NCBI RefSeq assembly: GCF_009914755.1
Contig: NC_060936.1
DNA: 64,000 nucleotides
DNA from: the human T2T-CHM13v2.0 reference genome, Homo sapiens
Direction: 5' to 3' (one strand)
Part shown: positions 31,847-36,178 of the stretch, one piece after another
Position numbering within the stretch: the stretch's first letter is position 1
How the letters are laid out: each line of letters opens with the position of its first letter
Position numbers and translations under genes: made by a program
The notes under the pieces: model-generated
Told to the model about the DNA's origin: nothing
The model's database searches: none
Seen by the model: only the letters and a program-made list of their open reading frames with translations

Positions 31847-31930
31847 CAGAACCAGCTGTATAATTTGTGAGGCCCATTGCTGAATGAAAATGCTGAGCCC
31901 TTTGTTCAAACATCATTAAGAATATTAAGA
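31847..31930 (-). mobile_element. MER45A hAT element, first half (split by the FLNB retrocopy)
   Basis: cagaaccagctgtataatttgtgaggccca...ttgttcaaacatcattaagaat matches one half of the recalled MER45A consensus. Confidence 0.7.
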
Positions 31931-32913
31931 GGCGGCTCAGCACGCAGGCGCAGGGCCAGGCGCCTCCCGCGGCCAGGGGCGGGCAGCCGCAGAGCAGCAC
32001 GCTGGGCCTTGGCTCCGGTAGCAGCAAGTTCGAACCCCGCTCCCGCTCCGCTTCGGTTCTCGCTCCTCGGCCCTTGGGCCTCCAAACACCATTTCCTGGC
32101 AGTTCGTTGCGCATTGCGCTCTCCCCGCCACCAGGATGCCAGTGACCAAGAAGGATCTGGCGGAGGACGCGCCGTGGAAGAAGATCCAGCAGAAGACGTT
32201 CACAAGCTGGTGCCACGAGCACCTCAAGTGCGTGAACAAACGGCATTGGCGCTGACCTGAGCGACGGGCTGCCGCCCATTGCGCTGCTCGAGGTGCTCAG
32301 CCAGAAGCACATGTACCTCAAGTACCATCAGCGGCCCACCTTTCGCCAGATGCAGCTCAAGAACGTGTCCGTGGCGCTCGAGTTCCTGGACCGTGACAGC
32401 ATCAAGCTCGTGTCCATCGATAGCAAAGCCACTGTGGATGGGAACCTGAAGCTCATCTTGGGTCTGGTGTGGACGCTGATCCTCCGCTACTCCATCTCCA
32501 CGCCCGTGTGTGAGGATGAAGGGGATGATGATGCCAAGAAGCAGATGCGGAAGCAGAGGCTGCTGGGGTGGATTCAGAACAAGGTCCCCTACTTGCCCAT
32601 CACCAACTTTAGCCAGAACTGGCAAGACAGCAAAGCCCTGAGAGCCCTGGTAGACAGCTGTGCTCCAGGTCTGTGCCCAGACTGGGAATCCTGGCACCCA
32701 CAGAAACCTGTGGATAACGCAGGAGAAGCCATGCAGCAGGCAGATGATGGCTGGGTGTCCCACAGGTCACCACTCCTGAAGAAACCATTCACCCGGATGT
32801 GGACGAACACTCAGTTATGACTTACCTATCCCAGTTCCCCAAAGCCAAGCTCAAGCCAGGGGCGCCTCTCAAACCCAAACTCAACCCGAAGAAAGCCAGG
32901 GCCTATGGCAGAG
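31931..32913 (+). pseudogene. Processed pseudogene of filamin B (FLNB): 5' UTR plus spliced exons 1-4 (actin-binding CH1/CH2 domain)
   Basis: Intronless. ATG at 32136 reads [22 protein letters not shown]; continues ...[21 protein letters not shown]...[12 protein letters not shown] with FLNB-specific residues and the FLNB 5' UTR. A frameshift gives TGA at 32253-55, and a second 1-nt deletion lies near 32748. Confidence 0.95.
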
Positions 32914-35900
32914 AATTGGAGCCAAAGAAGCCGACGACCTGAAAATGCCAGTGGGCACAAACATAGAAAGTGCCAACAAAAGCTGCCCTGTCCAGCAAGA
33001 AGACCAGGAAAGAGCAGCCCAGTGAGGCAGAAAACTTTTAAACAATCACTGCTCTGCTCCAGCTCCACACCACAGAAAAAACTGTGCAGTCCCGCACTTA
33101 CACCCGCAAAGGTGAAAGGGGAGCCTAGACTTTGACCACAGTCTAGCAATAAGGAAGCCACTCCCCGGGAAGGTGTCAGTAGAGGCCGTGGAGGAGCAGT
33201 AATGAGGCACTCCTACTCCCTCCAGCGGAACTCCCACCCCCACATGCCAGTAATGAGCATCAGTGGAGGTTGAATGGAGAACCTAGACTTCCTCCCCCAC
33301 TGTTAGTAACGAGATGTGTACCCTCTCCTCCCCTGCCAGAATGGTATCATAAAACGCCAGCTACAACAGAACATTTACAGAAGACTCAGAGTTTCATTAC
33401 ATGATACCTCAAATATCCAGTTTCAAAAAAAAAAAAATCACTTGTCATACCAAGAACCAGAAAGATCTCAAACTGAATGAAAAACACAGTTGATGCCAAC
33501 GCGGAGATGATAGAGATGTTAGAATCGTATGACAAAAATTTTAAAGTGGCCGTTAAAAAAAGGCTTCAGTAGCCGGGCATGGTGGCTCATGCTTGTGATC
33601 CCAGCACTTTGGGAGGTTGAGGCGAGTGGATCGCCTGAGGTCAGGAGTTTGAGGCCAGCCTGGCCGACATGATGAAACCCCATCTCTAGTAAAAAATGCA
33701 AAAAATTAGCCGGGCGTAGCTGGGTGCCTGTAATCCTGGCTGCTTGGGAGGCTGAGGCAGAAGAATTGCTTGAACCCAGGAGGCGGAGGTTGCAGTGGGC
33801 CAAGGTCAGGCCATTGCACTCCAGCCTGGGCAGGAAGAGTGAGACTCCATCTCAAAAAAAAAAAAAAAAAAAAAAAAGGCTTCAGTAAGTAATTAAGAAC
33901 AATCATGAAACAAATGAAAAAAATCAAAAATCTCAACAAAGAAATAGAATGTCCCAGCAAAATAATAATAAAAATTTAGGAGATACAAAGAACCAAATGG
34001 ACATTTTAGAACTGGAAATTGCAGTAACTGAAATAAAAACTCATTGGATGAGCGCAATAACAGGGTGGAAGGACAGAGAAAATAATCCTTGAACTGGACA
34101 AAAACTGGTTGTTTTGTTTTGAGATGCAGTTTTGCTCTTGTCGCCCAGGCTGGAGTGCAATGGCGTGATCTCGGCTCACCGCGGCCTCTGCCTCTTGGAT
34201 TGGGGTGATTCTCCTGCCTCAGCCTCCCTAGTAGCTGGGCTTGCCGGTGCCCGCCACCACGCCCGGCTATTTTTTGTGTTTTTGGTAGAGATGGGGTTTC
34301 ACCCTGTTGGCCTGGCTGGTCTCAGGCTCCTGACCTTAGGTGATCTGCCCACCTCAGCCTCCCAAAGTGCTGGGATTACAGGCATGAGCCACCGCGCCCG
34401 GCTTCTATAAGTTTTTTTCTATGTTTAAAACTTTTAATTTCATTTTTGTACTTAATTTTTTTTTTTTATTAAACACACACATTAGCCTAGGCTTACACAG
34501 GGTCAGGATCATCATTATCACTGTCTTCCACCTCCACATCCTGTCCCACTGGTAGGTCTTCAGGGGCAGTAATGTGTGGAACTGCTGTCTCCTGTAATAA
34601 CAATGCCTTCTGGAATACTTCCTGAAGGACTTGCTTGAGGCTGCTTTAAAGTTAACTTTTTTAAAAAATAGAAGATGCACACTCTAAAATATAATAATAA
34701 AAAGTATAGGATATTAAATACATAAACCAGTAGCATTGTCATTTATCATCAAGTATTGTTTATTGAACATAGCTGTACATGCTGTATACGTTTCTATGGC
34801 TAGCAGCGCAGTGGGTTTGTTTATACCAGCATCAGCACAAACACATGAGTAATGCGATGCGTTACTACGACGTCAGTAGGCAACAGGAATTTTTTGGCTC
34901 CATTTATAATCTTATGCGACCATCATTGTATGTGTGGAATATTTTTGACTGAAACTTCATTATGCAGCAAATTACTATATTAGCAAATAAAATTGAGCTA
35001 TATATAATGAAGAAGTACACATTATAACCAAGTGGGTTTATTCCAGGGATGTAAGGCCTGGTTCACTATTAGAAAATCAGTCAACATAGGCTGGGCACGG
35101 TGGCTCACGCCTCTAATCCCAGCACTTTGGGAGGCCGAGGCGGGTGGATCACCTGAGGTCGGGAGTTCAAGACCAGACTGACCAACATGGAGAAACCCCT
35201 TCTCTACTAAAAATACAAAATTAGCCAGGTGTGGTGACAGGCACCTGTAATCCTAGCTACTAGGGAGGCTGAGGCAGGAGAATCGCTTGAACCCAGGAGG
35301 CAGATATTGCAGTGAGCCGAGATCACGCCATTGTACTCCAGCCTGGGCAACAAGAGCAAAACTCTGTTTCAAAAAAAAAAAAAAAGAAAAAGAAAGAAGA
35401 GAAAATCAGTCAACATAATCTACCGTATTAACAGACTAACAAAGAGAAATTACACAATTCGTATCAGTGGATGCAGAAAAGGCATTTGACAAAATTCAAT
35501 AGCCATCCATGATAAGAATACACACACACACACAAAAGAGGAATGGGGGAACTTTCTCAATCTGATATAGAGTGGCTACTACAAGAAACTTACGGCTAAC
35601 ATTATGATTAATAGATTGAGTGTGTTCTCCTAAGAGAAACAAGGCAAGGATGGCTGTTCTGTTTTGACCACTCTTATTCAACATAATGCTAGAAGTTTTA
35701 GCTAGTGCAGTCAGGTAAGAAAAGGAAATAAAAGATATGCATATTGGAAGGTAAGAAATAATACTGTCTCTATTTGCAGATGCAGATGACTGTCGATGTA
35801 GAAAATCCCAAAGAATCCATGAGGGGTAGAAAACCCAAATACCTCACCCCCTTGAATAAGTGAGTTCAGCAAGGTCACAGTATACAAGATCAATATGTAA

Positions 35901-36082
35901 AAATCGATTATATTTCTATATAATTTAATGAACAAATGGACACAAAAATTAAAAATAGCATATCCTGTTTATAATTGCTTTTAAAAAGTATAAGTGTAAC
36001 AAAACACATAAAGGAGTTAAATGCTGAAAACTACAAGAACACTGATAAATAAAAGAGACCTAAATAAATGGAAAAAAAATAT
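32914..36082 (+). mobile_element. 3' part of the retroposed unit: old L1 fragments, a Tigger3-like piece (~34470-34980) and three Alus (+ 33571-33877, - 34110-34402, + 35089-35400), ending in AATAAA plus an A tract
   Basis: L1 ORF1/ORF2-like sequence (e.g. gatgcagaaaaggcatttgacaaaattcaa). Alu TSDs AAAGGCTTCAGTA and GAAAATCAGTCAACATA. AATAAA at 36048 and 36063, A8 at 36072-79. Confidence 0.8.
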
Positions 36083-36178
36083 ATCATTAAGAATTTTAAG
36101 ATGGCAATGACAGCGCATTAAACCAAGCATGGGGCCCTGTGCATCTGCACAGGTCACACTCCCATGAAGCCAGCCCCG
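36083..36178 (-). mobile_element. MER45A hAT element, second half
   Basis: atcattaagaattttaagatggcaatgacagcgcattaaaccaagcatggggccctgtgc...cccatgaagccagccccg continues the consensus exactly where the left half stops. Confidence 0.7.

What the first reader, a model, noticed from the sequence alone, without database searches (positions are those of the whole stretch)
31912..36101. 4.15-kb chimeric retrocopy: FLNB exons 1-4 spliced to an L1-derived polyadenylated tail, a possible fossil of an actin-binding-domain-only filamin B isoform
Seen in sequence: (1) an intronless FLNB copy that keeps its 5' UTR but stops at ...GCCTATGGCAGAG (32913); (2) 3.2 kb of L1/Tigger/Alu sequence ending in AATAAA (36048) and an A tract (36072-79); (3) a 19-bp direct repeat flanking the whole unit, ATCATTAAGAATATTAAGA (31912-31930) and ATCATTAAGAATTTTAAGA (36083-36101); (4) outer flanks that are the two halves of one MER45A. 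Established: L1-driven retrocopies are normally 5'-truncated, not 3'-truncated; FLNB exon 4 ends at c.787 (AGA G|GA, from recall), which is this junction; sense-strand L1 sequence carries cryptic poly(A) sites. Inference: the template was one mRNA in which FLNB exon 4 spliced into an L1-derived terminal exon, probably in FLNB intron 4, and was polyadenylated at an AATAAA inside L1 ORF2 sequence. Read through the junction it encodes ...[15 protein letters not shown] (TGA 32940-42), about 271 aa of isolated CH1-CH2 domain without Ig repeats or dimerisation domain. That would mean such an isoform existed in the ancestral primate germ line and may still be made.
Basis: partly seen in the sequence, partly recalled or inferred. 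Interest (0 to 1): 0.85.

Follow-up and report, generated by a model that had tools for sequence, protein, structure and literature searches.

The report
Fossil of truncated filamin B transcript
This is a dead, reverse-transcribed copy of an old alternative filamin B messenger RNA that ended inside an L1 repeat in intron 4, and it also preserves marks of RNA editing, so it is an unusually informative example of an ordinary kind of pseudogene.

Summary
Window 31931-32913 is FLNB 5'UTR plus exons 1-4, with no introns. It stops exactly at the exon 4 donor, c.787. The tail (32914 onward) aligns in one colinear block with chr3 58128983-58131481. That block lies sense-strand inside FLNB intron 4, 6.8 kb past exon 4. 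It includes two nested Alus and a repeat fragment, and it starts just after a pyrimidine tract and AG inside the L1 5'UTR. A 19-nt target-site duplication flanks the unit.

Two things are new. First, human FLNB intron 4 now lacks the last ~680 nt of the terminal exon, including both AATAAA signals. It also carries a 4-nt insertion that changes the tail reading frame. The isoform therefore cannot be made today in that exact form. Second, the retrocopy's inverted Alu pair has 17 derived A>G changes against 2 T>C on the transcript strand. The parental Alus have 2 and 2. This fits ADAR editing of the source RNA. Each component process is already known in kind. Interest is moderate.

The parts
31912..31930 (+). 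5' target-site duplication
   Evidence: family D15; matches 36083-36101 at 18 of 19 positions
31931..32135 (+). FLNB 5'UTR; corresponds to 203 nt upstream of the parental ATG
   Evidence: 95.0% identity, with one 3-nt insertion and one 1-nt deletion
32136..32913 (+). FLNB coding sequence of exons 1-4 (joins at 32419/20, 32668/9, 32765/6). Disabled by an 8-nt deletion near 32242 and a 1-nt deletion near 32747. Encodes the calponin-homology actin-binding region.
   Evidence: Pfam CH domain PF00307, E 4.1e-18, two stretches
32914..33565 (+). Start of the L1-derived terminal exon (L1 5'UTR into ORF1). The stop codon of the chimeric frame is at 32940-32942.
   Evidence: 92.1% to C3:58128983-58129638; for homology to other L1 copies
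33566..33887 (+). Alu1, sense, with its own target duplication (33555-33571 and 33871-33887). Present with the same duplication in FLNB intron 4. Carries 8 of the 17 polarised A>G sites.
   Evidence: D17
33888..34103 (+). L1 ORF1 segment; forms the loop between the inverted Alus
   Evidence: 93.9%; no A>G excess
34104..34410 (-). Alu2, antisense to the transcript. Also present in the parent. Carries 9 of the 17 polarised A>G sites, counted on the + strand.
34411..34985 (+).
   Evidence: FLNB intron copy 89%, all others 80% or less; 91.3%
34986..35088 (+). L1 ORF2 segment before Alu3
   Evidence: 95.0%; contiguous with 35418 onward in L1 copy L027
35089..35401 (+). Alu3, with a 16-nt target duplication at 35073-35088 and 35402-35417. 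Its 5' junction is shared with an Alu in the parent, but the two Alu bodies are not orthologous. No A>G excess.
35418..36071 (+). L1 ORF2 segment that is absent from present-day human FLNB intron 4. Holds AATAAA at 36048-36053 and at 36063-36068.
   Evidence: no match in C3:58122001-58152000
36072..36082 (+). A run (8 nt) plus TAT: remnant of the poly(A) tail, with ambiguous boundaries
36083..36101 (+). 3' target-site duplication
   Evidence: family D15

Best explanation
This is an L1-mediated processed pseudogene made from one alternative FLNB transcript.

In an ancestral primate germ-line or early-embryo cell, FLNB exons 1-4 were spliced from the normal exon 4 donor to a cryptic acceptor. 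That acceptor lay inside the 5'UTR of an old, sense-oriented L1 sitting 6.8 kb into intron 4. Transcription ran on through that L1, which already carried two Alus and another repeat fragment. The RNA was cleaved and polyadenylated about 20 nt after an AATAAA in L1 ORF2 sequence. The message would have encoded the 262 N-terminal residues of filamin B (the CH1-CH2 actin-binding region) plus about 9 L1-derived residues.

The inverted Alu pair in its 3'UTR formed a long duplex and was edited A-to-I by ADAR. The RNA was then copied in trans by the L1 machinery into chr12, inside another repeat, creating a 19-nt target duplication. The copy has since decayed.

Afterwards the FLNB gene itself changed. 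About 680 nt holding the poly(A) signals were lost next to an Alu, probably by Alu-Alu recombination, and 4 nt were gained just after the acceptor.

What is shown: the structure, the source locus, the splice junction, the deletion in the parent, and the strand-specific A>G excess. What is inferred: ADAR as the cause of that excess, true polyadenylation at the site, the mechanism of the deletion, and the age.
For: Intron loss at the exact exon borders, ending at the exon 4 donor.

The tail is one colinear block. Window 32912-35385 aligns with C3:58128981-58131481 over 2,540 columns at 85.4% (alignment). Non-Alu segments are 91-95% identical and Alu segments 81-83%.

The block lies inside intron 4. 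Exon 5 starts at 58135210, found by homology to FLNA exons and bounded by cag|GAATCG and GAGGAG|gtatgt.

The acceptor is a pyrimidine tract plus AG directly before the first tail base. L1 homology continues about 200 nt upstream of it: 3 of the 10 L1 loci tested span it. The same Y-tract plus AG is present in 3 of 3 other L1 copies aligned.

Alu1 has the same insertion site and target duplication in both loci. The Alu1 and Alu2 pairs share 5 and 9 derived states respectively. The tail therefore came from this locus and not from another L1.

Only one such copy exists in the genome.

The target duplication is confirmed, and the empty site is reconstructed from paralogous repeats.

Editing signal. 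Polarised with 52-55 unrelated Alus, the retrocopy lineage has A>G 17, T>C 2, G>A 10, C>T 10. The parental lineage has A>G 2, T>C 2, G>A 9, C>T 11. Against the Alu majority, A>G is 10 of 64 A positions in retro Alu1 and 9 of 44 in retro Alu2. It is 0-2 in each of six control Alus. Tests: binomial p 3.6e-4; Fisher p 2.4e-4 and 3.5e-5. The excess is on the + strand in both Alus although they have opposite orientations. There is no asymmetry in the non-Alu tail or in the FLNB exons. The parental Alu1-Alu2 RNA folds into one long duplex, with MFE -461 kcal/mol, z -24.8 and 0 of 20 shuffles as good. A 5' neighbour G occurs at 2 of 17 sites, against 38 of 124 for all A.
Against: The A tail is only 8 nt at most, and its borders overlap L1-templated A and possible target-site A. 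Polyadenylation at this site therefore rests mainly on the two AATAAA hexamers.

The last 654 nt of the tail have no counterpart in today's FLNB intron. Their origin from that locus is inferred from two facts. The L1 reads uninterrupted across Alu3 in the retrocopy. And the parent resumes about 25 nt beyond the retrocopy's end in L1 coordinates.

Alu3 shares its 5' junction with the parent but not its body. It has 1 shared derived state, and 37 of 55 unrelated Alus are closer to it than the parental Alu3 is. It also shows no editing. It may have entered the retrocopy later.

No outgroup genome, RNA-seq, 3'-end data or chr3 annotation was available. The age, the empty site and any present-day use of the acceptor are therefore untested.

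One retrocopy can come from a rare aberrant RNA. The editing test rests on 17-19 sites. The neighbour preference is too small a sample to be conclusive.
Confidence: 0.9

Rival explanations
1. Template switching. During reverse transcription of an unrelated L1 RNA, the L1 reverse transcriptase jumped to an FLNB mRNA, giving an mRNA-L1 chimera like the U6-L1 chimeric retrogenes.
For: The unit is a cellular sequence joined to L1 sequence within one target duplication.
Against: The L1 part is the specific copy in FLNB intron 4, with its own nested Alus and repeat fragment at the same sites. The junction falls exactly at the exon 4 donor and an intronic AG. The L1 part ends inside ORF2 and not at the L1 3' end.
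Confidence: 0.01
2. A retrocopy of a partly unspliced pre-mRNA that kept intron 4, followed by a later 6.8-kb deletion at the chr12 locus.
For: Intron-retaining transcripts upstream of intronic L1s are described (PMC3192792; abstract and results passages).
Against: The deletion would have to begin at the first base of the intron and end just after an AG preceded by a pyrimidine tract.
Confidence: 0.02
3. The splicing is as described, but the 3' end is not a poly(A) site. Reverse transcription was primed internally on the A-rich stretch of a longer RNA, so the true transcript ran further into intron 4.
For: The A run is 8 nt at most and lies within A-rich L1 sequence. The target duplication may itself begin with A.
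Against: Two AATAAA hexamers lie 9 and 24 nt before the A run, and the first is at the canonical distance for cleavage. That processed pseudogenes normally start from the poly(A) tail is established knowledge, recalled and not tested here.
Confidence: 0.1
4. The A>G excess in the two Alus comes from DNA-level mutation at the chr12 locus (for example transcription-associated asymmetry or repeat-structure effects) and not from RNA editing.
For: Transcribed regions show a modest A>G over T>C bias on the coding strand (recalled, not checked here).
Against: The excess is about 8-fold and is confined to the two mutually complementary Alus. It is absent from the loop between them, from the rest of the tail, from Alu3, from the FLNB exons and from two flanking Alus. 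The parental locus has the same inverted DNA repeat without the bias.
Confidence: 0.08

Closest known systems
Processed pseudogenes that record alternative transcripts of their parent genes (Shemesh et al. [quoted passage not shown] A related idea for microRNA host transcripts is PMC7692494 (search listing only).
   Same: An intronless copy with a target duplication that preserves a splice pattern not found in the canonical mRNA.
   Different: Here the alternative terminal exon is a 3.2-kb stretch of intronic L1 with nested repeats. The parent gene has since lost the 3' end of that exon. RNA editing is recorded as well.
Exonization and cryptic polyadenylation caused by sense-oriented intronic L1s (Kaer et al. 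2011, PMC3192792; abstract and results passages read; FLNB is not mentioned there, 0 occurrences). 'Gene breaking' by L1 (Wheelan et al. 2005) and premature polyadenylation within L1 (Perepelitsa-Belancio and Deininger 2003) are both recalled and were not seen.
   Same: The host gene transcript is truncated at an intronic L1 through a cryptic acceptor and a cryptic poly(A) signal.
   Different: In Kaer et al. the exonized sequence lies upstream of young full-length L1s. Here both the acceptor and the poly(A) signal lie inside an old L1. The evidence is also a genomic retrocopy and not ESTs.
Splicing-mediated 5' transduction in SVA elements: MAST2 exon 1 in human SVA_F1 and STK40 exon 1 in a chimpanzee SVA subfamily (Damert 2018, PMC6139936; abstract read).
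   Same: Upstream host exons are spliced into an acceptor inside an intronic retroelement, and the chimeric RNA is then retrotransposed by L1 in trans.
   Different: Those chimeras stayed mobile and founded subfamilies. This is a single dead copy, and its L1 part is an old element interrupted by other repeats.
ADAR footprints in newly made processed-pseudogene insertions (Mendez-Dorantes et al. preprint, PMC11702581; one passage read). [quoted passage not shown]
   Same: Clustered, strand-specific A-to-G-type changes confined to an inverted Alu pair in the 3'UTR of the retrocopied RNA.
   Different: Those are experimental insertions in cultured cells with induced L1. This one is a fixed germ-line insertion, roughly tens of millions of years old, read against its surviving parental locus.
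Alu recombination-mediated deletion (Sen et al. 2006; recalled, not seen).
   Same: The parent has an Alu with a retained 5' junction, a body that is not orthologous to the retrocopy's Alu3, and loss of the adjacent ~680 nt.
   Different: The second Alu needed for the recombination is only inferred. A microhomology deletion combined with Alu replacement is not excluded.

Membership tests
L1-mediated processed pseudogene (retrocopy) | Introns removed exactly at the parental exon borders | tested here: met
L1-mediated processed pseudogene (retrocopy) | Target-site duplication flanking the whole unit | tested here: met
   19 nt, 18 of 19 identical; empty site reconstructed in 3 of 11 paralogous repeats
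L1-mediated processed pseudogene (retrocopy) | 3' poly(A) tail after a polyadenylation signal | tested here: inconclusive
   Two AATAAA hexamers are present, but the A run is only 8 nt and its borders are ambiguous
L1-mediated processed pseudogene (retrocopy) | Located away from the parent gene, as a single dispersed copy | tested here: met
   Parent on contig C3, copy on C12; the only other hits are the FLNA and FLNC paralogues
Exonized intronic L1 serving as an alternative terminal exon | Sense-oriented L1 inside an intron of the host gene | tested here: met
Exonized intronic L1 serving as an alternative terminal exon | Pyrimidine tract and AG immediately before the first exonized base | tested here: met
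   conserved in 3 of 3 other L1 copies
Exonized intronic L1 serving as an alternative terminal exon | Poly(A) signal at the end of the exon in the host gene | tested here: not met
   Present in the retrocopy but deleted from present-day human FLNB intron 4. Met only for the inferred ancestral state.
Exonized intronic L1 serving as an alternative terminal exon | Transcripts with the junction seen in RNA data | not testable with these tools
   No RNA-seq, EST or chr3 annotation available. Literature searches for FLNB with 'intronic polyadenylation' gave nothing on intron 4.
ADAR-edited inverted-Alu duplex | Two oppositely oriented Alus close together in one transcript, able to form a long duplex | tested here: met
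   Alu1(+) and Alu2(-) lie about 220 nt apart. Predicted duplex MFE -461 kcal/mol, z -24.8.
ADAR-edited inverted-Alu duplex | Clustered A>G changes on the transcript strand only, confined to the duplex | tested here: met
   17 A>G against 2 T>C in the retrocopy; 2 against 2 in the parent; controls flat
ADAR-edited inverted-Alu duplex | Depletion of G as the 5' neighbour of edited sites | tested here: inconclusive
   2 of 17 sites against 38 of 124 for all A. The direction is right but the sample is small.
Template-switch chimeric retrogene (U6-L1 type) | The 3' part is the 3' end of an L1 or other retroelement RNA unrelated to the 5' partner's locus; the junction is unrelated to splice sites | tested here: not met
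   The tail is the intron 4 copy of the same gene. The junction is donor to AG. The L1 ends inside ORF2.

The most novel reading that the evidence does not exclude
The retrocopy is a single-molecule record of an ancestral catarrhine germ-line transcriptome. On this reading it shows that an actin-binding-domain-only filamin B, created by an L1-supplied acceptor and poly(A) site, was a regular product. It shows that the product's inverted-Alu 3'UTR was heavily ADAR-edited in germ cells. And it shows that the human lineage later abolished this isoform by deleting the poly(A) region. By extension, old retrocopies that carry inverted Alus would form an unused archive from which ancient RNA-editing levels could be read genome-wide.
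Probability: 0.12. Interest if true: 0.65.

Novelty: new member of a known kind. Interest (0 to 1): 0.45.

Why it matters
One 4.2-kb pseudogene records three RNA-level events in one ancestral molecule: a cryptic splice into an intronic L1, premature polyadenylation inside L1 ORF2, and A-to-I editing of an inverted Alu pair. It also preserves about 680 nt of FLNB intron 4 that the human gene has since lost.

It is a clean worked example of L1 'gene breaking' that would have produced a filamin B consisting only of its actin-binding domain. It also suggests that comparing retrocopies with their parents, Alu by Alu, could recover ancient editing.

It does not show that the isoform had a function, and each component process is already known. 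RefSeq annotates the locus only as a predicted 'filamin-B-like' pseudogene. I found no paper on it: a search for the locus name gave 0 papers, and FLNB with 'processed pseudogene' gave 5 unrelated papers.

Tried and rejected
- Shemesh et al. 2006 could not be read because it is not held.
- Searches for FLNB with 'processed pseudogene', for LOC102724178 and for FLNB with 'intronic polyadenylation' (passages) gave nothing about this locus or about an intron 4 isoform.
- Searches for prior reports of ADAR marks in retrocopies gave only the cell-culture preprint PMC11702581. PMC5224506 reports no editing of L1 RNA itself in its own assay.
- I first tested whether parental Alu3 is a different element by comparing pairwise identities of the three Alu pairs. 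These were 83.1%, 81.8% and 81.3%, so the test did not discriminate. Counting shared derived states did.
- Unpolarised substitution counts gave only a weak editing signal, p about 0.04. The clear result needed polarisation with unrelated Alus.
- I looked for the missing tail segment (35405-36082) elsewhere in the genome. The best non-self matches are other L1 copies at 66-75% over long stretches, and one of 81% over 151 nt. None is in FLNB (40 of 4238 candidates scored).
- I checked whether the upstream 'exons' of the RefSeq pseudogene model are FLNB-derived. They are not.
- Template switching, intron retention followed by deletion, and DNA-level mutation bias were each considered and are scored as rivals.
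- No structure or complex prediction was run, since nothing here depends on one.

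
Full report
**What is in the window.** A 19-nt direct repeat sits at 31912-31930 and 36083-36101, identical at 18 of 19 positions. 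It brackets a unit that begins with GC-rich sequence and ends with two AATAAA hexamers (36048-36053 and 36063-36068) and an 8-nt A run (36072-36079).

**The FLNB part.** A search of the window's own assembly with 31931-32913 returned 13 matches: the window itself, four stretches on contig C3, and the FLNA-like and FLNC-like paralogues on C23 and C7.
- The C3 stretches are 58048775-58049269, 58117441-58117702, 58119110-58119212 and 58122024-58122173, at 91-96% identity.
- After trimming BLAST overhang at the splice sites, the parental pieces measure 495, 249, 98 and 148 nt.
- The exon joins in the window are 32419/32420, 32668/32669 and 32765/32766.
- The copy stops at 32913, the last base of exon 4, which in the gene is followed by gtgagt.
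- The copy keeps the equivalent of 203 nt of 5'UTR.
- It is a dead gene. An 8-nt deletion near 32242 and a 1-nt deletion near 32747 break the frame. Coding identity is 94.0%, with 47 mismatches in 778 aligned bases.
- The longest open stretch (194 codons, 32236-32817) matches the Pfam calponin-homology domain in two stretches, E 4.1e-18.

**Where the tail comes from.** The first 652 nt of the tail (32914-33565) have one outstanding match in the genome, C3:58128985-58129638, plus strand, 87% over query positions 3-652. None of the other 45 listed matches covers more than about 310 nt or exceeds 82% (40 of 540 candidates scored).
- I fetched C3:58122001-58152000 and compared it with window 31800-36300.
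- Apart from the exon 4 match and Alu-to-Alu hits, there is a single 2,540-column alignment, window 32912-35385 with C3:58128981-58131481, at 85.4%.
- The global alignment is colinear throughout, with no gap longer than 15 nt.
- By segment: L1 5' part 92.1%, L1 ORF1 part 93.9%, repeat fragment 91.3%, L1 ORF2 piece 95.0%. The three Alus are 83.1%, 81.8% and 81.3%.
- Alu1 sits at the same site with the same target duplication in both loci (family D17).
- The repeat fragment 34440-34985 belongs to a family with 3064 first-look candidates. The FLNB intron copy matches at 89% and all others at 80% or less.

**The source is inside intron 4, and the junction is a splice.** FLNA exon sequences from locus L010 match C3 at 58135212-58135339 and 58138206-58138372. 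The first of these is bounded by cag|GAATCG and GAGGAG|gtatgt. Exon 5 therefore starts at 58135210, and intron 4 is 58122174-58135209.
- The tail source begins 6,809 nt into the intron, on the sense strand.
- Immediately before its first base the gene reads tttactttgctttatatatcccag. The retrocopy thus joins the exon 4 donor to a pyrimidine tract plus AG.
- Homology to other L1 copies continues about 200 nt upstream of this AG. Three of the 10 L1 loci tested span it: L021, L018 and L017.
- All three carry a pyrimidine-rich stretch and AG at the same column.
- The acceptor is therefore L1 5'UTR sequence and a feature of that L1 family.

**The 3' end, and what the parent has lost.** Window 35405-36082 has no counterpart anywhere in C3:58122001-58152000. 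It has no close match anywhere in the genome. The best non-self matches are other L1 copies at 66-75% over long stretches, and one of 81% over 151 nt (40 of 4238 candidates scored).
- In the retrocopy the L1 reads straight through Alu3. In L1 copy L027, the piece before Alu3 ends at 1508 and the piece after it begins at 1514. Alu3 has a perfect 16-nt target duplication.
- In the gene, the sequence after the corresponding Alu resumes about 25 nt beyond the retrocopy's last L1 base in L1 coordinates (L028: 2143 against about 2169; L030 agrees).
- The human gene has therefore lost about 680 nt of L1 ORF2 sequence, including both AATAAA hexamers and the cleavage site. The retrocopy keeps the older arrangement.
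- The parental Alu at the deletion shares its 5' junction with retro Alu3 to within 3 nt, but the bodies are not orthologous. They share 1 derived state, against 5 and 9 for the Alu1 and Alu2 pairs. Also, 37 of 55 unrelated Alus are closer to retro Alu3 than the parental Alu is.
- By recalled diagnostic positions, the retrocopy's Alu3 looks like AluS and the parental one like AluY.
- My best reading, which is inference, is that a younger Alu inserted just 3' of the poly(A) site and then recombined with Alu3.
- A microhomology deletion plus Alu replacement, or an independent Alu3 insertion in the retrocopy, is not excluded.

**The reading frame of the tail.** In the retrocopy the frame runs G|AA TTG GAG ... 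to TGA at 32940-32942, nine codons after the split codon. The gene has four extra bases (AAAG) shortly after the acceptor. The retrocopy and 3 of 3 other L1 copies lack them, so the short tail is the older state. With the insertion, the present human sequence would read 37 further codons before a stop, following the split codon.

**Flanks.** The left flank from about 31845 is a dispersed repeat, with 39 non-self matches at 74-87%. Of 11 paralogous loci:
- 3 carry left- and right-flank homology contiguously, overlapping by the 19 duplicated bases;
- 1 is colinear with a 12-nt offset;
- 2 have right-flank hits elsewhere in the locus;
- 5 have no right-flank hit.

This supports a simple insertion into one repeat copy. 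True empty-site evidence needs outgroup genomes, which I did not have.

**A second layer: RNA editing.** Alu1 (sense) and Alu2 (antisense) lie about 220 nt apart. The parental sequence folds as RNA into one long duplex, with MFE -461 kcal/mol, z -24.8 and 0 of 20 shuffles as stable.
- Raw parent-to-retrocopy differences in these two Alus show more A>G (30) than G>A (14), T>C (17) or C>T (15). Outside CpG contexts the counts are 22 against 12, 11 and 10, p about 0.04.
- I polarised each difference using the majority base of 52-55 unrelated Alus from the fetched loci. Sites without a 60% majority were dropped: 16 sites were unpolarised and 2 differed from the majority in both copies.
- The retrocopy lineage then has A>G 17, T>C 2, G>A 10, C>T 10 and 5 transversions.
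- The parental lineage has A>G 2, T>C 2, G>A 9, C>T 11 and 15 transversions.
- Compared directly with the Alu majority, A>G is 10 of 64 A positions in retro Alu1 and 9 of 44 in retro Alu2. It is 0-2 in each of six controls: the three parental Alus, retro Alu3 and the two Alus flanking the retrocopy.
- Tests: binomial for 17 against 2, p 3.6e-4. Fisher for 19 of 108 against 3 of 109, p 2.4e-4. Fisher for 19 of 108 A against 2 of 118 T, p 3.5e-5.
- The excess is on the transcript strand in both Alus although they are oppositely oriented. That rules out an Alu-intrinsic hotspot.
- The loop between the Alus, the rest of the tail and the FLNB exons (A>G 9, T>C 7) show no asymmetry.
- A 5' neighbour G is found at 2 of 17 sites, against 38 of 124 for all A. 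This is the direction expected for ADAR, but the sample is too small to weigh.
- The same inverted repeat in the parental DNA lacks the bias, which argues against a DNA-structure effect.

I conclude, with about 85% confidence, that the source RNA was hyper-edited by ADAR and that inosines were copied as G. This also shows independently that both Alus were part of the RNA template.

A precedent exists in cell culture. In a preprint on induced L1, 3 of 235 new pseudogene insertions had clustered changes restricted to inverted Alus in the 3'UTR (PMC11702581; one passage read). My three searches for a germ-line example found none. These searches cover open-access text only, and I may be missing subscription papers.

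**Age (inference).** Kimura distances between the retrocopy and the parent are 0.052-0.093 in non-Alu tail segments and 0.063 in the coding part. With recalled primate neutral rates of about 1-2.2e-9 per site per year, this gives roughly 20-45 million years. That fits the presence of AluS-like elements inside the copy and the absence of the AluY-like element found in the parent. No outgroup genome was available to test this.

**Comparison with what is known.**
- Retrocopies that preserve alternative transcripts are an established idea (Shemesh et al. 2006; recalled, paper not held).
- Truncation of host transcripts at sense-oriented intronic L1s through cryptic acceptors and cryptic poly(A) sites has been documented from ESTs and minigenes (PMC3192792; abstract and results passages; FLNB is not among the text's genes, and I did not open its supplementary tables, which might list more).
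- Splicing of host exons into an intronic retroelement followed by retrotransposition is known for SVA_F1/MAST2 and for a chimpanzee STK40-SVA subfamily (PMC6139936; abstract).
- This locus is a new and unusually complete example that combines these processes. It is not a new kind of element.
- RefSeq lists it only as a predicted 'filamin-B-like' pseudogene.

**Verdict.** The extension that the isoform 'may still be made' is weakened by the deletion and the frame change in the human gene. Biological importance of the isoform is not shown. Interest 0.45.

Noticed in passing
window 23964-32985 (RefSeq model LOC102724178): Only the last exon of the predicted 5-exon 'filamin-B-like' pseudogene is FLNB-derived. 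A genome search with 26500-29000, which covers three of the upstream 'exons', gave 24 non-self matches. All are short repeat-like hits, and none is near FLNB on C3. The model's last exon also runs 72 nt past the FLNB/L1 junction, to 32985.
   Followed up: partly
L023 6983-7010 (C3:58128983-58129010), FLNB intron 4: The human gene has a 4-nt AAAG insertion just after the cryptic acceptor. It is absent from the retrocopy and from 3 of 3 other L1 copies. If the acceptor were used today, the tail would extend from about 9 to 38 codons.
   Followed up: yes
L023 9179-9500 (C3:58131179-58131500), FLNB intron 4: An Alu marks a deletion of about 680 nt of L1 ORF2 sequence in the human gene. Its 5' junction matches that of retro Alu3, but its body is a different, apparently younger Alu. 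An ATTAAA lies about 130 nt further on, at C3:58131615 (read).
   Followed up: partly
window 31394-31740: The Alu just upstream of the retrocopy has its own direct repeat (aaaaatccctaggttg) on both sides (read). It is an independent insertion, and it served as a control Alu with no A>G excess.
   Followed up: partly
window 33410-33440 and L023 about 7495-7520: An A run inside the L1 5' region is shared by the retrocopy and the parent and differs in length by 2 nt. The source transcript therefore read through an internal A-rich tract without ending there.
   Followed up: no
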